Origin: a virus
Lineage: Duplodnaviria; Heunggongvirae; Uroviricota; Caudoviricetes
DNA: 53,943 bases
IMG/VR virus record: IMGVR_UViG_2869947659_000002
Reading direction: 5' to 3' (one strand)
The notes below the pieces were generated by a model that had not been told where the DNA came from, ran no database searches, and was given only the letters and a program-made list of their open reading frames with translations. Shown here piece by piece: positions 1,335 through 45,543 of the stretch. The position numbers were made by a program, and so were the translations under genes. The stretch's first letter is position 1; every line of letters starts with the position of its first letter.

Positions 1335-1685
1335 TTACTCCCTGACAGGATTTGCAGGCCACTCAATATCAGGTGCAGTTGATGTATCAACACGGTTCAG
1401 CAACACCCGATACTTTTTCCAGGCTTCCAGCAATGAGGTTTCTTCCTCCGTTGCAATTTCCAGATCTGCAGCATCCTGAAGCGGCGCAATATGCTCACTG
1501 GCTACCTGCATCAGGTTGTTTTTTGTTTCTTCCGCTTCCCGTATCCGAAACAGTTTTTCTGCTTCTTCATCTTTCACCCAGGATGTGCCGTTCCACTTCT
1601 GAAACTCCCCTTCCGGGGATAACCAGGTGACATTTTCCGGTAATGAGCCGAGTTCAGAAATAAATAACGCGTCGCCGGAAGCCAC
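1335..1685 (-). CDS. tfa: tail fiber assembly protein Tfa, N-terminally truncated (GTG start)
   Basis: Protein matches Tfa of lambdoid phages ([12 protein letters not shown]...[46 protein letters not shown]); in-frame TGA 24 nt upstream of the GTG, so the usual ~75-aa N-terminal part is absent. Confidence 0.7.
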
Positions 1686-6875: not shown

Positions 6876-9800
6876 TCAGCTAATCGTGATGCCTGCAGTG
6901 GCTTTCTTCATCACCACAACCAGCAAATCGCTGATACTTGCTGTGGGATACCAGTTATTTACCAGCCATGCTGACACCGAAAACTCCAGTGTCATGTGAC
7001 CGTGACCGGCAGGCATATCAATAACACCACTGTAAATCAGCGTATTATCCAGCGCGGTACGGTTATAAATTTCAGCACCGTTTTTCCGCACTATCAGACG
7101 GCATGAGGAGTAAATATCAGTATGCTCTTTCTCATGTTTAGCGCCGCTGAATGCCACCGCCGGAATAACAATCTGCCGGTCAAACGGCTGATCGTCATAA
7201 ACCCTGACGGTAATGGTTCCTGATGGCCACCGCTCCGGTGCACGGGAGTCCCGGGGGAAAGCTTTGCCCACTGTTTTAACGAGATCGCCTTCAATCTGGT
7301 TCGCGGACAATTTTCCCAGAACCCGACAGTTCTCGTTAATCGTGACGTTGTTGAGCGTCCCGGAGTTCGCATTCACGTTACCGCTGATATCGGCATTTTT
7401 CGCCGTCAGCCGCCCGTCCGGTGTCAGGGAAAATGCCGGAGGATTACCGCCGCTGGTAATGGTGGGGGCCGTCAGGCGTTTCAGGAACACGTCGTTCATG
7501 AATATCTGATCACCCTGACCAACAAACATCGGTTTTGTGTTGCCATTTGCAGGATTAATCATCGCAATCCTGTCTGCCGCCAGCAGCACCTGACTCTGCA
7601 TGCCGTCGGGGGTGTTCTCAATACCGGCACCGATACCCGCAATATAAAGGCGTCCGTCCTGCATCTGCTGCAGCTTCACAGCCCACATGCTGTTCAGATT
7701 ATTATTTGTATCAACCTGAACCTTCTGTATCTGCTGGATCGCTGCACTCTGGTCTTCCAGTTTTTTATTGACGGTCTGCGTGATTTCATTGCTGACATCC
7801 GTAATGGACGTCCTGATTTCAGCCAGGTCAGGCGCAAGCTGACCGTTATCAATCTGCGTCCACAACTCCTGAGCCAGATGGGTTTTCCCTATCTCTCCTT
7901 TGAAAAAATCCAGATAGCCGGATGCATCATCACTCGGCTGGCCAACAGCCTCCACAAATGCCGATTTGCCAACAGTATTCACACTGCGGATATAAAAATA
8001 ATAATCATGGCCCGGTTTGATATTGATACTGGCAGCTATCCAGTACAGCGCCGAGCCAAGATAGCGGGCTGCGGTTTCAACCTGCCTGATATCCGCAATC
8101 CGCTTTTCCGAGAACCAGAACTCAAACTGTACCGTCGGGTCATAAACGGCAAGATGCGGCGTGGCGGTTATCTGAAAATAGCCCGGCGTCAGCTCAATCC
8201 GCGACGGTGCTGCCGGTGCGGCAATCCGGAAGGTGGTGGTGGCAGGTTCACCCTGCTGGCCATAGCTGTTTATCGCCCGCACCGTCAGGGTGTATTCCCC
8301 GAGCGGCAGGCCGCTGAAACGGTGCTCCGTGTCTGCGGTGATGGCGGTGGTCACCAGTCTGGCATCCGTTCCCTTACCACTGGTCAGGCGCAGACTGAAG
8401 CGCACGCCCTTCACCACCCGCGGCGTGTCCCATTTAGCCTGCGCCAGATACTGGCCGTCAGCTGCGCTCACCTCCACCGTCAGGTGCTGTACTGCCGGTG
8501 GGATGACGCTGTTCAGGGAGCCTGACTGCGGCTCAAAGCGGGCACCGTTATCCACGATGGCTTCTTTTTCCGGTACGTGCTGCACCGCCGTGATGGCAAA
8601 GGTGCCGTCCGTGTTTTCCCGGATGGAGACACAGCGGAACAGGCGACGGCGCAGTGACGGCAGGGAGAGTCCCCACACCCCGTATGTCTCCACACCATCA
8701 GGCAGGGTACTGACCTGTATCCGGTCCGGCGCGGGGTGTTCGGTGATGTCCACACTCACCGGCTTACCGCTGCCGTTAATCAGGTTCACCGTGGCGGCAC
8801 CGGTCTCCGGCAGGGTAACCTCACGGTCCAGCGTCAGGGTGCGGGTGGCAGCATCAATGGACAGGACACGTCCACCGGTCAGGGTCCCGGCATAGTCATT
8901 ATCACAGATTTCAATAATGTCACCGGGTGTGTGCCGCAGCCCCTGAGACCCGAGCGTGAAATCCACCGTCTGCGTTTCCAGCAGTTCGGTCTTTATCACC
9001 CACAGTCCGGCACGGTGGGCCTGACCGCGGCTGGTACAGCCGAACGCGTCCATCTTCAGCAGATTGCGCCCGTAGCGCAGTATGGCTTCCGGGTCTTCCA
9101 CCAGTTCCGTGGAGGTCTGCCAGCCGTTCTGCGGGTCGGTGTAATTCACCTCCACCGCCGTGTGCCGGTCCTTCAGGGCACTGAAGCTGTAGCGGAACCC
9201 CACGCCGTTATCATCCACCACCACATCGCTGTTGGTGTACGGCCACACCACATCCGACAGGCGGTCCTGAACAAACGTCAGCATCTGGCCGTTCCATACC
9301 GGCATACAGCGCATCGCCGAGCAGAAATCACTGAGAACATCCCACGCCTTACGCTGTTGTGCCAGGTACGCATTGAAGGTCATCCGCGGCTCGGTGCCCC
9401 CGAAGCCATCCGGCACCATCTGGTCGCAGTACTGCCCGATGGCATACAGCGCCCACTTGTCCACATCCGCCGCCCCCAGACGTTTTCCCATGCCGTAGCG
9501 CGGGTGAGTCAGCATGTCCCACAGACACCAGGCCGGATTGTTGCTGTATGCCGGTTTCAGACTGCCGTCCCAGATACCACTGTACGTGCGTTTTTCCGGG
9601 TCATAGTTTGACGGCACCTGGATGATGCGACCGCGGATATGGTAGTTCACCGTCATCTGCTGACCACCAAACTGCTCCGCATCCACCTGCATCCCCACAA
9701 TGGCCGTGTTCGGGTAGCACTGTTTCACATCGATGATTTCGGTGTATGACGACCACAGCGTTCTGTTCTGCAGCTGGTCCGTGGTGCTGTCCGCCGTCTC

Positions 9801-10349
9801 CCTGACCATCCGGATGTTAAAGGGGCGGGGAGGCAGATTATCCAGAATCACCGAGGCCAGGAACTGTGAGGTGGTCTTGCCGTTAATGGTGACATCCTTT
9901 TCTGTCACCCAGTTACCGTTACGCTGTAACTGAATCAGCAGACGGACAGAGGACGGATTACGGTCACCCTTTGACGTGGTCTCCACCAGTGACTGCACCC
10001 CGAAGGTCACCCGCAGGCGGTCAATGTTCGCTGACGTAATGGTGCGTGTTACCGGTTTTGCCCTGGTCACTTCGACACCCAGTACAGTTTCAGAGCCGGA
10101 GGACTCAAAGCCTTCCGGTGGTGTCTGCTCCTGCTCCCCGGCACGCCAGACCGCGGTCACACCGTGTATCACGGGATTACCGTCCGTGTCCGTCAGCGGG
10201 GTTTTGTTCACCAGAATACTCTGCAGGCCTTTCACCGGGCCTTCTATCGGTCCCTCACCAATCGCATCAATCACGCTCATCATCTGCGTGGATTTGAGAT
10301 TGTCTTTCGCCTCACGCGGTGTGTGCGCCTTGCCGCCACCTTTGCCCAT
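6876..10349 (-). CDS. J: tail tip host-specificity protein J
   Basis: 1157 aa; N-terminus [39 protein letters not shown]... matches lambda gpJ. Confidence 0.95.
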
Positions 10350-10452
10350 TACATCACCTCTTACCGTGATAATTGTTCACTCACAAAAACAACAGGCACC
10401 TCACCGGGTGCCTGCGTCATGACGGAATAAAATTTCTGAATATCTTCACATT

Positions 10453-10584
10453 TTCACACACTGACTGTGGCGCGTATAATTTCGCTGCGTTAGTGTTTTT
10501 TTGCCCGAGTAACAAAAACAACTCCTTCACATTGATCTTCATTTGTCTGTCCCCGCAGCTCCGCGATCACTGCGGGATTTTTTT
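10453..10584 (+). ncRNA. candidate small RNA unit antisense in the I-J intergenic region (promoter to terminator)
   Basis: TTCACA (10453..10458), 16-nt spacer, TATAAT (10475..10480); hairpin CCCGCAG...CTGCGGG (10552..10576) followed by T7 (10578..10584); no credible ORF with RBS in between. Confidence 0.3.
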
Positions 10585-10589
10585 ATGTT

Positions 10590-11270
10590 TTATCCCTGTC
10601 GCCCGATAACCACGACCTTTCCGCCCCCGCCTTCATCACGGGTGCTGATGTCCTGGGATATACGGCGGGAGCCAACCAGCATTTCCCCGTAAGGCACCGG
10701 CATCGGGTTCCCCTGGGCAATCATGTTATCCAGCGAGGAAAAGTACGTGTTCTGTCTGCCGTTATCCGTTGCGCGGTAATCCGGTGTTTTTGCCTTCGGG
10801 GCCAGCATCTGGGCCACACCGCCCAGAATCATGCTGGCTCCAAGTGAAAACAGCATCGTGGTGGCAGAAAAACCACCGGCTGCCAGGGCTGAACCCCATA
10901 ACGCCATTGATGCCCCGGCAGTGAAGAAAGAGCCCACGATGGCTGCCGCCCCCAACACAATCTGCAGTCCACCCTTTCCGGCCCCGGCCAGTCGCGGCAC
11001 AATGTGGATGACCGTTCCCTCACCCAGCTGTTCGTGAAGGCGGGCGTACACCACCTCCGGTGCCGTGTCTTCACCGGCAATACGTATCTGGTACCAGCCT
11101 TCGTTCATCTGACGGCGAAAGCCCGGCATCTGCATCGACAGGGCGCGGATGGCTTCCGCTGCCATGTTCACATACAGGCTGAGGCGGCGGCCAAATCGTT
11201 GCAAATCCCCGTGAAGGCAGATGTGTGCCAGTGGCGGTGACGCCAGACAGAATGCGTTCGTCGTTGCCAT
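10590..11270 (-). CDS. I: tail assembly protein I
   Basis: 226 aa; matches lambda gpI (ICLHGDLQRFGRR..., C-terminal Gly-rich). Confidence 0.9.
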   Translation of the reverse strand: MATTNAFCLASPPLAHICLHGDLQRFGRRLSLYVNMAAEAIRALSMQMPGFRRQMNEGWYQIRIAGEDTAPEVVYARLHEQLGEGTVIHIVPRLAGAGKGGLQIVLGAAAIVGSFFTAGASMALWGSALAAGGFSATTMLFSLGASMILGGVAQMLAPKAKTPDYRATDNGRQNTYFSSLDNMIAQGNPMPVPYGEMLVGSRRISQDISTRDEGGGGKVVVIGRQG

Positions 11271-32101: not shown

Positions 32102-32325
32102 GAATCCTCCCGGCCGGGATAATATTGTGAGTAAAATAAGGAGCGGGCTGAAGTCCGGAAGTTACAGGACAATGGCAGAAGAGAGACGACAGCCCGCAAT
32201 TCGAAAAAGACCGCGCAGTTGCGCAGAGTGATTACTATGGGGTATTATTCGCCAGCTGAAATATTACTTCACGTTTTATTGTTTATTCCTTGCCGCCCGC
32301 GTCTCCCAGCGCGGGCTTTTTTTGC

Positions 32326-32575
32326 CCACAAGAAAACCCCTCCGGAGAGGGGCTAAAGCCGCGTATCTGTATCATCATGCACATGGTGCCGGGTGCCTCC
32401 CGGTGAGTTCAGCCCGGTGCCACTAAACCCGCGTCATTCTCGTTTTGATAATCAGAGATTATACCGTCACCAGTCGCCCCTCCGCTCAGGGGGATTCACC
32501 ATGCGAAATTTTTTTAACAAATGCCCAGTCTGACAGGCAACTGTCAACTTACTGAATTGTGAGCAACATAGCATT
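32326..32575. repeat. structured ~245-bp repeat unit A (imperfect direct repeat of unit B)
   Basis: Shares conserved blocks with 32815..33060: CCCCTCCGGAGAGGGGCT hairpin, CATGGTGCCGGGTGCCTCCCGGTGA, GCCCCTCCGC.CAGGGGGATTCACCATGC, CTGAATTGTGAG. Confidence 0.6.
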
Positions 32576-32814
32576 TAACGGGGAACCTGTTTTCTGCAGT
32601 AAAAAGGCCCACCGGAGCGGATGGGCCTGGAAGGATAGCGGTCATGTGATGCCGGTTTCCCGGTAACTCAGCACCGGTATCTGAGTCAACGTTTTCTCTA
32701 CTGGGTCATTTCCGATACGCCCTGCCTGCTGACAGGCTTTCATCACATCTGAAAATATAGCACCCTGACTGATACTGTAGTACCTAAGGTTCCAGAAACT
32801 GTGATGTATCCGGC

Positions 32815-33060
32815 ACAGAAAAGCCCCTCCGGAGAGGGGCTGGAGAGTGGCGCTATGTGCCATTGCATGGTGCCGGGTGCCTCCCGGTGAATTCAGTACC
32901 AGCACCTGAATCCGCGATTATCCCATATACCTACTCGCTGATTGCCCCTCCGCACAGGGGGATTCACCATGCCAGTTTCTTTTAACAAACTCCCCGCAAA
33001 CCAGACAACAGTCAACCGCCTGAATTGTGAGACATTTAAAAAAAAGCCCGCAAAAGCGAG
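32815..33060. repeat. structured ~245-bp repeat unit B
   Basis: See unit A; the GC hairpin is followed by a T-tract on the minus strand (terminator-like); lies directly downstream of the tRNA cluster. Confidence 0.6.
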
Positions 33061-33076: not shown

Positions 33077-33153
33077 TGGCGCGTTGTACTGGATTCGAAC
33101 CAGTGACCGATTGCTTAGAAGGCAATTGCTCTGTCCGGCTGAGCTAACAACGC
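33077..33153 (-). tRNA. argN: tRNA-Arg (anticodon UCU)
   Basis: 77-nt cloverleaf read by eye: GCGUUGU acceptor, D-arm AGCUCAGCCGGACAGAGC, anticodon loop CUUCUAA, T-loop GGUUCGAAUCC, CCA end. Confidence 0.85.
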
Positions 33154-33166
33154 AGGATACAGATAA

Positions 33167-33243
33167 TGGACCGCCTTCGGGGACCCGAACTCCGCGCAAC
33201 CAGCTTCGAAGGCTGGCGCTCTTTCCTGATGAGCTAATGGCGG
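33167..33243 (-). tRNA. tRNA-like gene, probably tRNA-Arg (anticodon UCG), possibly degenerate
   Basis: Anticodon stem-loop CCAGC-CUUCGAA-GCUGG and CCA end, but an A-A mismatch in the acceptor stem and an imperfect T-stem. Confidence 0.5.
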
Positions 33244-33250
33244 TATGTGA

Positions 33251-33326
33251 TGGTGGCCCTTGCTGGATTTGAACCAGCGACCTGGCGATTATGAGTCGCT
33301 CGCTCTCACCACTGAGCTAAAGGGCC
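33251..33326 (-). tRNA. ileZ: tRNA-Ile2/Met-type (anticodon CAU), ileX-like
   Basis: GGCCCUUUAGCUCAGUGGUGAGAGC...CUCAUAA...GGUUCAAAUCC...GGGCCACCA; closely resembles E. coli tRNA-Ile2. Confidence 0.8.
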
Positions 33327-38063: not shown

Positions 38064-38219
38064 TTACTCCTCAGGTTCGTAAGCTGTGAAGACAGCGACC
38101 TCCGTCTGGCCGGTTCGGATTCGTACCTCGCAGAGGTCTTTCCTCGTTACCAGTGCCGTCACTATGACGGTTAAACAGATGACGATCAGGGCGATTAGCA
38201 TCGCCTTTTGCTGCTTCAT
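38064..38219 (-). CDS. hokD: Hok/Gef-family type I toxin (HokD/RelF-like), with overlapping mok-like frame to 38276
   Basis: MKQQKAMLIALIVICLTVIVTALVTRKDLCEVRIRTGQTEVAVFTAYEPEE; six-frame ORF 38064..38276 gives the mok-like upstream extension. Confidence 0.9.
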   Translation of the reverse strand: MKQQKAMLIALIVICLTVIVTALVTRKDLCEVRIRTGQTEVAVFTAYEPEE

Positions 38220-38961
38220 AGCCTGCTTCTCCTTGCCTTTCGGCACGTAAGAGGCTAACCTACGTGTGTAGAGCATAGATATGGCCTCAGATTAATGTTA
38301 AGCGTCTTGCCGGACGCGTAATGTTAACTGGGGCTTTTCTCTATCTGCCTTTGGTGTTGATGCCCGAGGCAGATAGCCTCAAGCACCCGCAGCAATTCTA
38401 CTTAACTACCGTTACCTCGCCAATATGAAATCAATCAGAAAGGTGATCCATAAGAACAACAGCAAGACAATAAATTGCCATTACAGCAGCAATAGCCAGC
38501 GCACATTTGAGAACCAGCACCACAACCTCCTGTATTGGACGTACACCAGTCCTGATAAATATGAGGCTGTCTCGTCAGTGATTCAATACAACTACTGGGT
38601 ATAGTTTCTATGATTTTGTTCTGTGGAAATGGAAAACAGCAACCAGTCACCACCAGCACTTCTTTAAACATGCCAAGTCACACGCAAGCCAACATTATAG
38701 TTCCCTTTGAGCGAGCAGATGAAGCTAGCAAAAATATTGATCACTTAGGATGCATTACTAACGTTGCTATGTGTTAACGAACAGGGAGTGGGTCATCAGC
38801 ATAAATATTTATGCAGTAGGTTTCTTTTAGGACTAGATTAATCAAAAACATTTAGATAAAATTATAAAATCAAGAAATTGGTGGCAATTAATCTTTAATT
38901 GTGCCAGCTGAATTTCGTTATTATAGAAGATTAGCTTTTTTTTGAATGTTTGGAGAGTAAA

Positions 38962-45485: not shown

Positions 45486-45543
45486 TTTCTGGTGACGTTT
45501 GGCGGTATCAGTTTTACTCCGTGACTGCTCTGCCGCCCTTTTT
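45486..45543 (+). ncRNA. dicF: DicF small regulatory RNA (53-nt mature form plus U-tail)
   Basis: Exact match to the DicF sequence as I recall it: TTTCTGGTGACGTTTGGCGGTATCAGTTTTACTCCGTGACTGCTCTGCCGCCC followed by TTTTT. Confidence 0.85.

What the first reader, a model, noticed from the sequence alone, without database searches (positions are those of the whole stretch)
10381..10590. Promoter-terminator unit antisense to the tail operon in an enlarged I-J gap (candidate sRNA)
The I-J gap is 240 bp here, much longer than in lambda as I recall it. On the plus strand, opposite to the tail genes, there is a near-consensus promoter (TTCACA, 16 nt, TATAAT) and about 100 nt downstream a strong intrinsic terminator (CCCGCAG...CTGCGGG plus T7), with no credible ORF between. 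On the tail-gene strand a separate hairpin plus T-tract (10395..10416) sits about 45 nt upstream of the J start. Together this looks like a small RNA gene plus a possible attenuator.
Basis: partly seen in the sequence, partly recalled or inferred. Interest (0 to 1): 0.55.

Follow-up and report, generated by a model that had tools for sequence, protein, structure and literature searches.

The report
Known prophage small RNA PasB

Summary
The I-J gap is 240 bp, against 60 bp in lambda. The plus strand carries TTCACA-16-TATAAT at 10453-10480 and a 7-bp GC-rich hairpin followed by U7 at 10552-10584. The tail-gene strand carries a hairpin and T-tract at 10381-10415.

The unit is the sRNA PasB. The gap is 239/240 identical to the I-J gap of prophage PP6 in EPEC E2348/69. 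The published 83-nt PasB maps to window 10502-10584 (+), and its Northern probe matches 10557-10579 exactly. PasB was validated by Northern blot, is Hfq-dependent, and has 37 RIL-seq partners (Pearl Mizrahi 2021).

New here:
- The conserved promoter predicts a 98-nt primary transcript starting near 10487.
- The 166-bp cassette behaves like an antisense "sRNA moron". It occurs in the I-J gap of at least 20-30% of complete E. coli genomes and in most long-tailed Stx phages, as several diverged alleles.
- Only the terminator is a conserved structure.
- The top RIL-seq partners pair with an unstructured core at 10523-10547, often across the ribosome-binding site and start codon (napF: 16 bp).

The tail-strand hairpin is conserved with compensatory changes, and lambda has a hairpin at the same position. 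Its role as an attenuator is untested.

Verdict: already known, low novelty.

The parts
10350..10589 (.). I-J intergenic gap, 240 bp (lambda: 60 bp)
   Evidence: ORF map; lambda annotation; 239/240 identical to the E2348/69 PP6 gap
10424..10589 (+). Conserved 166-bp cassette (upstream block, promoter, sRNA, terminator) abutting the I stop codon. It has the layout of a 'moron' inserted antisense into the late operon.
   Evidence: Most megablast hits in E. coli genomes start at query position 75/78, which is window 10424/10427, and run to the end of the gap. 147 phage records hold it full length.
10424..10452 (+). A/T-rich conserved block upstream of -35 (UP-like or regulator site). Contains a first TTCACA copy at 10445-10450.
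   Evidence: Conserved in alleles found with a pattern that does not include it. Function is inferred only.
10453..10458 (+). -35 hexamer TTCACA
10475..10480 (+). -10 hexamer TATAAT, 16-nt spacer
   Evidence: Across 128 loci the -10 is TATAAT in 85, TATCAT in 23, AATAAT in 17.
10487..10584 (+). Predicted primary transcript, about 98 nt. The TSS is inferred as the 7th nt after the -10; GCGTTA is conserved there.
   Evidence: Inference from the promoter and the conserved +1 region. The family profile built here matches 10487-10584 at E = 7e-23, the only copy in the window.
10502..10584 (+). PasB as annotated in E2348/69 (83 nt), identical here
   Evidence: Table S6 of PMC8550237, mapped through the alignment. 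The probe matches 10557-10579.
10511..10522 (+). AAC AAA AAC AAC: four A-R-N triplets, a candidate Hfq distal-face site
   Evidence: Sequence. An A-rich tract is kept in all alleles. The Hfq contact is inferred.
10523..10547 (+). Unstructured core UCCUUCACAUUGAUCUUCAUUUGUC, the predicted seed region
   Evidence: Unpaired in the MFE and in the consensus fold. The best helix with 9 of 12 top RIL-seq partners falls here, against 31% for random windows.
10552..10584 (+). Intrinsic terminator: stem 10552-10558 / 10570-10576, then A and U7 at 10578-10584
   Evidence: It is the only consensus structure across 28 distinct alleles, with one compensatory G-C to A-U change.
10381..10415 (-). Tail-strand hairpin (10415-10392) plus T-rich tract (10391-10381), about 30 nt upstream of the J start codon
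   Evidence: Present in 28 of 29 distinct J-proximal segments, with C-G to U-A compensatory changes. Lambda has a different hairpin at the same position.
6876..10349 (-). Tail tip protein J gene (context)
   Evidence: the homologue is annotated gpJ in E2348/69
10590..11270 (-). Tail assembly protein I gene (context). The annotated homologue corresponds to 10590-11171.

Best explanation
The unit is pasB, the gene for a prophage-encoded, Hfq-dependent, trans-acting small RNA.

It is a self-contained cassette: an A/T-rich upstream block, a near-consensus sigma-70 promoter, a roughly 100-nt non-coding transcript and an intrinsic terminator. The cassette lies between the stop codon of tail gene I and the ancestral hairpin that precedes tail gene J, and it points against the late operon.

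Proposed mechanism:
1. In a lysogen, host RNA polymerase starts near 10487 and terminates at the U7 tract (10584).
2. The stable species reported in EPEC is 83 nt (10502-10584). The first ~15 nt are therefore either trimmed or were under-covered in RNA-seq.
3. Hfq binds the terminator hairpin and U-tail, and probably also the AAC-AAA-AAC-AAC tract.
4. The unstructured core (10523-10547, UCCUUCACAUUGAUCUUCAUUUGUC) pairs with mRNAs, often across the Shine-Dalgarno sequence and start codon. Examples are napF, yijD, tolC, caiF and ydbJ. This is expected to block translation initiation.

Shown by the published work on E2348/69: the RNA exists, depends on Hfq, is more abundant in static LB, and is ligated to these partners on Hfq.

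Shown here: identity of the sequence, conservation of the promoter and cassette, absence of a conserved ORF, the terminator as the only conserved structure, and enrichment of partner complementarity in the core.

Inferred: the TSS, the Hfq contact sites, the direction of regulation, and expression in this particular strain.
For: Identity:
- The gap is 239/240 identical to E2348/69 PP6, and the PasB stretch is 83/83 identical.
- PasB coordinates, strand, length and probe come from Table S6. The probe's reverse complement matches 10557-10579 exactly.
- The context is the same, tail assembly protein / gpJ. IS009 lies nearby, as reported for PasB flanks.

Published function:
- Northern blot, Hfq-dependent stability, higher level in the non-activating condition.
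- log2FC in delta-hfq is -6.8 and -2.4; 37 interactions; the sRNA is RNA2 in about 100% of chimeras.

Conservation:
- Found in 1116 of 5426 complete genomes. The O157-type gap is in 1612 of 5426.
- 147 phage records carry it.
- 104 of 104 viral loci that contain both I and J have it inside the I-J gap.
- The promoter is kept in most copies found with a promoter-independent pattern.

Non-coding: the 41-aa minus-strand ORF is cut to 22 aa in E2348/69-type alleles and is not conserved in other alleles.

Structure: only the terminator is a consensus structure, with one compensatory pair.

Seed:
- Partner helices are stronger than background (Mann-Whitney p = 7e-5).
- They centre on nt 37-61 in 9 of 12 partners, against 31% for random windows (binomial p = 0.002).
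- napF forms a 16-bp helix spanning -10 to +5, dG -26.6 kcal/mol.
Against: - No expression data exist for the strain this window comes from.
- The published 5' end (10502) lies 15 nt downstream of the start predicted from the promoter. Neither end has been mapped by 5' RACE or dRNA-seq in anything I could read.
- The original authors found no common target motif for PasB (no PasB entry in Table S7).
- My seed test uses 12 hand-picked top partners and a simple contiguous-helix score. Three of the twelve best helices fall outside the core.
- Several partner sites lie inside coding regions (yhhX, hflX, map, rplX).
- No regulatory outcome has been measured for any target.
Confidence: 0.88

Rival explanations
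1. PasB acts mainly in cis. It is perfectly complementary to the I-J intercistronic stretch of the late tail mRNA. During lytic growth it would pair with that RNA and trigger RNase III cleavage or decay, tuning expression of J and the distal tail-fibre genes. Its convergent promoter could also interfere with late transcription. This is compatible with a trans role.
For: The gene is antisense to the late operon in every one of 104 loci. The position, directly after the I stop codon, is invariant across diverged alleles. Tandem copies keep the same orientation.
Against: The overlap (10487-10584) covers no coding sequence and no ribosome-binding site. The J start is about 135 nt away. The RNA is abundant in uninduced lysogens and is ligated to chromosomal mRNAs on Hfq. 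Alleles diverge in the body, which changes nothing for a cis-antisense RNA but is what diversifying trans seeds would look like. No data exist on late-mRNA processing.
Confidence: 0.12
2. The enlarged gap encodes a small protein on the tail-gene strand (ATG at 10542, 41 aa, ending at 10417). On this reading the plus-strand signals are incidental.
For: An ATG-initiated 41-aa ORF lies in the gap on the operon strand.
Against: In the commonest PasB alleles, including E2348/69, a T at the position equivalent to 10474 creates a stop and cuts the ORF to 22 aa. Other alleles have different frames, lengths and sequences. The ORF start lies within the reverse complement of the PasB body. Published strand-specific data place the RNA on the opposite strand.
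Confidence: 0.02
3. The promoter and terminator are chance matches or a decayed moron, with no functional product.
For: One 11/12 promoter match per 54 kb is about what chance gives. The scanner finds terminator-like sites at near-background frequency.
Against: The same promoter-RNA-terminator arrangement is conserved across alleles that are only 75-80% identical, and across more than a thousand genomes. The identical sequence yields an Hfq-bound RNA in vivo.
Confidence: 0.01
4. Concerning only the tail-strand hairpin (10381-10415): it is a true attenuator or terminator that limits transcription into J unless RNA polymerase is Q-modified. The alternative is that it is a 3'-end stabiliser or processing site for the upstream tail mRNA.
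For: 9-bp GC-rich stem plus a T-rich tract, z = -3.5. It is retained in 28 of 29 J-proximal variants with compensatory changes. An unrelated hairpin with a T-tract occupies the same place in the long-gap variant and in lambda.
Against: Late transcription in lambdoid phages is Q-antiterminated and reads through intrinsic terminators (established knowledge). Termination would therefore matter only for unmodified polymerase. The T-tract is interrupted (TGTTTTTGTG). One variant (L095) lacks the hairpin. No transcript-end data are available.
Confidence: 0.4

Closest known systems
PasB (pathogenicity-associated sRNA B) of EPEC E2348/69 prophage PP6. Sources: Pearl Mizrahi et al. 2021, Sci Adv (PMC8550237); Zhu, Shabalina & Storz 2026 preprint (10.64898/2026.05.13.724894).
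   Same: The 83-nt sequence is identical. The strand relative to the tail genes, the 240-bp I-J gap, the terminator and the neighbouring IS009 element are all the same.
   Different: One base differs just upstream of the -10 (G here, T in E2348/69, at 10474). Expression in this strain is unknown. The papers I read do not describe the promoter, the I-J position or the diverged alleles.
Phage 'morons': autonomous promoter-gene-terminator cassettes inserted between genes of lambdoid late operons (Juhala et al. 2000, from my own knowledge; cited in PMC4104026).
   Same: A self-contained promoter-to-terminator cassette of 166 bp sits between two adjacent late genes. Lambda has only 60 bp there, and the ancestral junction hairpin is retained beside the cassette.
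   Different: The cargo is a non-coding RNA, and the cassette points against the operon.
Other prophage sRNAs of pathogenic E. coli: AgvB/AsxR (PR' moron site), HnrS/EcOnc10-12 (downstream of Rz), svsR (3' end of cI), PasA/C/D, STnc100, DicF.
   Same: They are prophage-borne, Hfq-associated and end in an intrinsic terminator. They link the prophage to host regulons.
   Different: Different loci and sequences. There is no Rfam match in the gap. AgvB/AsxR lie at PR', svsR lies in cI, and HnrS lies next to the lysis genes in Sakai Sp9.
Class II-like Hfq sRNAs (ChiX, MgrR, CyaR), from my own knowledge.
   Same: An unstructured body with an (ARN)n tract plus a terminator U-tail. Strong Hfq dependence. 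Pairing at ribosome-binding sites.
   Different: The class assignment is inferred from sequence only. Hfq face usage was not tested.

Membership tests
PasB sRNA | Sequence of the 83-nt RNA (NC_011601 1466343->1466261, minus strand) | tested here: met
   83/83 identical and gap 239/240 identical. Probe target is an exact match at 10557-10579.
PasB sRNA | Location in a lambdoid prophage, embedded in the phage structural operon, on the strand opposite the flanking tail genes | tested here: met
   It lies between the tail assembly protein I gene and gpJ in E2348/69 and in the window. 104 of 104 related loci agree.
PasB sRNA | 3' stem-loop followed by poly-U (intrinsic terminator) | tested here: met
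   7-bp stem plus U7. Consensus structure in 28 alleles.
PasB sRNA | Detectable ~80-nt transcript whose stability depends on Hfq | not testable with these tools
   Reported for E2348/69 only. There are no expression data for the source of this window.
Hfq-dependent trans-acting base-pairing sRNA | Own promoter and own Rho-independent terminator with a U-tail of at least 6; no ORF | tested here: met
Hfq-dependent trans-acting base-pairing sRNA | Accessible seed complementary to multiple mRNAs, with direct regulation shown by compensatory mutations | tested here: inconclusive
   Complementarity is enriched in core nt 37-61 for RIL-seq partners. No regulatory assay exists.
Cis-antisense regulator of the overlapping gene | Overlap with the coding sequence, ribosome-binding site or a processing site of the opposite-strand gene | tested here: not met
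   The transcript (10487-10584) overlaps only intercistronic RNA. The I stop codon is at 10590-10592 and the J start at 10349.
Any Rfam 15 family (including AgvB RF02702, AsxR RF02703, STnc100, DicF) | Covariance-model score at or above the gathering threshold | tested here: not met
   No hit in the gap at gathering threshold. Only chance-level hits appear at E up to 10.
HnrS (EcOnc10-12) | 66-nt sRNA in the late region of Sp9/Sp10/Sp12 | tested here: not met
   Sakai EcOnc12 lies downstream of Rz/Rz1, not in an I-J gap.
Phage moron | Extra DNA between two genes that are adjacent in related phages, carrying its own promoter and terminator | tested here: met
   Lambda gap 60 bp against 240 bp here. 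The 166-bp cassette has both signals.

The most novel reading that the evidence does not exclude
The I-J junction of lambdoid E. coli phages may be a dedicated slot for a diversified family of antisense-oriented 'sRNA morons'.

Family members share one promoter architecture, a conserved +1 region, a CU-rich/AAUCUUC motif and one terminator. They carry at least four diverged bodies (75-80% identity) and are sometimes present in tandem. The family occurs in roughly a quarter to a third of complete E. coli genomes and in most long-tailed Stx1/Stx2 phages.

Only the PasB allele has been studied. The alleles would have different regulons: the predicted napF hybrid is -26.6 kcal/mol for PasB but -10.5 for the commonest other allele. 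The RNAs might also act on the late tail mRNA in cis.
Probability: 0.4. Interest if true: 0.45.

Novelty: already known. Interest (0 to 1): 0.2.

Why it matters
As a discovery it does not matter much. PasB was found and validated in 2021, and its distribution was surveyed in 2026.

The exercise does show that a promoter-terminator reading of raw sequence can recover a genuine Hfq sRNA that is absent from Rfam and left unannotated in every RefSeq and GenBank record I inspected.

Three points could be useful to people working on PasB:
1. The promoter and a predicted TSS 15 nt upstream of the annotated 5' end.
2. The precise position of the gene, as a 166-bp cassette between the I stop codon and the ancestral junction hairpin.
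3. A candidate seed region with testable targets: napF, tolC, yijD, caiF and ydbJ at their translation start regions.

In addition, much more diverged alleles occupy the same slot in Stx phages and are missed by high-identity BLAST surveys.

Tried and rejected
- **Rfam.** Searches at gathering threshold and at E up to 10 found no family in the gap.
- **Other prophage sRNAs.**
  - AgvB/AsxR were rejected because they lie at the PR' moron site.
  - svsR was rejected because it lies at the 3' end of cI.
  - HnrS/EcOnc10-12 were rejected because they lie next to Rz/Rz1 in Sakai. The HnrS sequence itself was not obtainable, since no supplement is held.
- **Small protein on either strand.** Rejected, because no ORF is conserved.
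- **Conserved 5' hairpin (U-run pairing with the A-tract).** It appears in the single-sequence MFE of the 98-nt form but RNAalifold does not support it.
- **Genome-contig scan.** My pattern was too loose and returned 120 mostly chance terminators from unrelated bacteria. Only E. albertii and two probably contaminated contigs were true hits.
- **First body-based viral scan.** Too strict; it returned 4 hits.
- **Full-length RNAduplex on long partner windows.** It gave unrealistic multi-loop hybrids and was replaced by a contiguous-helix score with controls.
- **Full-text search for PasB sequence strings.** No paper found.
- **O157:H7 Sakai copy.** I could not locate it, so I could not check it against the EcOnc list or the dRNA-seq/Term-seq data (one search did not list Sakai).
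- **Promoter regulator.** No FNR, CRP or OmpR-type site was convincingly recognisable by eye. This was not tested formally.

Full report
**1. The observation**

- The window has a J-like ORF at 6876-10349 (-) and an I-like ORF ending at 10590 (-). The gap between them is 240 bp. Lambda's I-J gap is 60 bp, so "enlarged" is correct.
- On the plus strand the scanner finds TTCACA-16 nt-TATAAT at 10453-10480, an 11/12 match.
- This is the only match of 11/12 or better on either strand of the 54-kb window. About 0.8 are expected by chance. The match is suggestive because of where it sits, not because of its score.
- Downstream lies CCCGCAG(N11)CTGCGGG, then A and U7, at 10552-10584.
- On the tail-gene strand a 9-bp hairpin (10415-10392) is followed by TGTTTTTGTG. 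It folds far better than shuffled sequence (z = -3.5).

**2. Identification**

- Rfam has nothing for the gap.
- The literature search led to the Pas sRNAs of EPEC E2348/69.
- Table S6 of Pearl Mizrahi et al. 2021 gives PasB as NC_011601.1, minus strand, 1466343->1466261, 83 nt, prophage PP6, probe AATCCCGCAGTGATCGCGGAGCT.
- The probe's reverse complement occurs once in the window, at 10557-10579 (+), with no mismatch.
- In E2348/69 the RNA lies in a 240-bp gap between "tail assembly protein" and "gpJ", on the opposite strand.
- That gap and the window gap differ at one base: 10474 is G here and T there.
- PasB therefore maps to window 10502-10584 (+) and is 83/83 identical.
- The IS009 element that the Zhu/Shabalina/Storz preprint reports near PasB is also in the window, at 1378-1576.

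**3. What is already published for this sequence**

- It is more abundant in the "non-activating" condition, which is static LB at 37 C.
- In the delta-hfq strain it falls by log2 6.8 (activating) and 2.4 (non-activating).
- It has 37 RIL-seq interactions and is almost always the second RNA (RNA2) in chimeras, the position typical of sRNAs.
- Neither paper, as far as I could read, describes the promoter, a mapped TSS or the I-J position.

**4. Anatomy and conservation**

*Prevalence*
- Megablast finds the gap in 1116 of 5426 complete E. coli genomes. Most hits start at window 10424/10427 and run to 10589.
- The conserved unit is thus a 166-bp cassette that abuts the I stop codon, while the J-proximal 74 bp vary.
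- The O157/O26/O111/O145-type gap (342 bp) occurs in 1612 of 5426 genomes.
- In the phage collection 147 records hold the cassette full length, 127 of them at only 60-80% identity. Almost all are Stx1a-, Stx2a- or Stx2c-converting phages, and none annotates it.

*Alleles*
- A scan of viral contigs plus the fetched loci gave 128 copies. These comprise 48 distinct promoter-to-terminator sequences and 37 distinct transcripts.
- All 104 loci with recognisable I and J carry the cassette inside the I-J gap.
- At least four body types exist.
- All alleles keep GCGTTA at the predicted +1, a U6-9 run, an A-rich tract (here four A-R-N triplets at 10511-10522), a CU-rich motif (AACUCCUU), AAUCUUC, and the terminator.

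*Promoter*
- A promoter-independent scan still finds the same upstream architecture in most copies.
- About 15 copies have unrelated sequence upstream of +3, and a few loci hold tandem copies.

*Structure and coding potential*
- RNAalifold on 28 distinct transcripts predicts only the terminator stem, with one compensatory G-C to A-U change.
- The body is unstructured.
- No ORF on either strand is conserved. The window's 41-aa minus-strand ORF is cut to 22 aa in E2348/69-type alleles.

**5. The 5' end**

- With the -10 at 10475-10480, initiation is expected near 10487, which would give 98 nt.
- The published 5' end (10502, the last U of the U7 run) was set from RNA-seq coverage and approximate Northern size.
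- No promoter-like sequence would place a start at 10502.
- I therefore infer a 98-nt primary transcript that is trimmed, or whose U-rich 5' end was under-covered. This is unresolved.

**6. Mechanism**

*Partners*
- I read the PasB rows of the RIL-seq table and fetched 12 top partner regions from E2348/69.
- Many chimera windows straddle translation starts: napF, tolC, caiF, ydbJ, rpoS, and the yijD and yrdD starts in operon junctions.

*Test of complementarity*
- The longest contiguous helix between PasB nt 1-66 and each partner is stronger than for 1482 random windows. The means are 10.0 against 8.3 (Mann-Whitney p = 7e-5).
- The best helix centres on nt 37-61 (window 10523-10547) in 9 of 12 partners, against 31% for background (binomial p = 0.002).

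*Individual partners*

| Partner | Pairing site relative to the start codon |
|---|---|
| napF | 16-bp helix (15 Watson-Crick + 1 G-U) spanning -10 to +5, which covers the SD and the GUG start |
| yijD | -17 to -7 |
| tolC | -4 to +6 |
| caiF | +2 to +11 |
| ydbJ | -21 to -12 |

- Local hybrid energies are -26.6 (napF), -23.5 (caiF), -20.0 (ydbJ), -17.3 (yijD) and -13.6 (tolC) kcal/mol.
- The commonest other allele gives only -10.5 for napF.

*Reading*
- This fits a canonical Hfq sRNA that occludes ribosome-binding sites, with alleles likely to differ in regulon.
- The pairing is predicted, not demonstrated. The partners were chosen by chimera count, and the original authors reported no common motif for PasB.

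**7. The tail-strand hairpin**

- A hairpin with a T-tract precedes the J ribosome-binding site in 28 of 29 distinct J-proximal segments.
- It shows compensatory changes: CAGGCACCC/GGGTGCCTG against CAGGCATCC/GGATGCCTG.
- The long-gap variant has an unrelated hairpin in the same place.
- Lambda has AAACCGCC-TGCG-GGCGGTTTTGTCATTTAT in its 60-bp gap.
- It is therefore a conserved feature of the I-J junction in general and is independent of PasB.
- It could be a terminator for polymerase that is not Q-modified, or a 3'-end stabiliser for the upstream tail mRNA. This cannot be decided here.

**8. Rivals**

- A purely cis-antisense role is unlikely to be the main one. The overlap covers no coding sequence or ribosome-binding site, and the RNA is abundant and Hfq-bound in uninduced cells. 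It is not excluded as an additional role.
- A small protein and chance signals are both rejected.

**9. Verdict**

- The element is PasB, which is already known.
- The increments here are the promoter and TSS prediction, the cassette or "sRNA moron" description, the diverged allele family in Stx phages, and a candidate seed with targets.
- These are modest and partly inferential.
- Interest is 0.2.

Noticed in passing
window 1378-1576 (-): Rfam IS009 (RF02111) match at 218.8 bits, in the tail-fibre end of the prophage. It is the same element the Pas preprint reports as typical of PasB flanks.
   Followed up: partly
window 32324-32533 (-), 32811-33001 (-), 33080-33326 (-): Two STnc100 copies next to three tRNA genes. 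The Pas preprint proposes that STnc100 and PasD share an ancestor.
   Followed up: no
window 38214-38388 (-) and 45487-45538 (+): A sok antitoxin RNA (implying a hok/sok module) and a DicF sRNA in the same prophage window.
   Followed up: no
window 10474: The only difference from the E2348/69 gap is G here against T there, at -13 just upstream of the -10. The T variant also introduces the stop that truncates the minus-strand ORF.
   Followed up: yes
L010 757-1180; L013, L059; L047 4419-4693; L276, L297, L302: Some I-J gaps (about 421-424 bp or longer) hold two PasB-like cassettes in tandem, in the same orientation. Each has its own terminator and CU-rich motif.
   Followed up: partly
L052 (viral contig IMGVR_UViG_2534681940_000025): An IS element is inserted between the -35 and -10 of the PasB-type promoter. 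A 1599-bp gap seen may be this locus; I did not check that.
   Followed up: partly
L266, L268, L277, L278, L283 and about 10 more viral loci: A PasB-like body and terminator with completely different sequence upstream of about +3. The promoter has been replaced or lost by recombination right at the start site.
   Followed up: partly
L005, L008, L009 (gap 342-343 bp; O157:H7, O26, O111, O145): The long-gap variant carries about 100 extra nt between PasB and J, with a bidirectional terminator-like hairpin AAAACCCCGGTATC-TGCT-GATACCGGGGTTT. The variant is present in 1612 of 5426 complete genomes.
   Followed up: partly
L248 (contig labelled Streptomyces flavalbus, 3.4 kb) and L194 (Parendozoicomonas haliclonae, 460 nt): Full-length PasB-family matches in short contigs of unrelated taxa. 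This is most likely E. coli or prophage contamination of those assemblies.
   Followed up: no
L262 (E2348/69 3102290-3102590): One abundant PasB RIL-seq partner labelled 'nlpD IGR' actually covers the start of rpoS. That gene is annotated as frameshifted in E2348/69.
   Followed up: no
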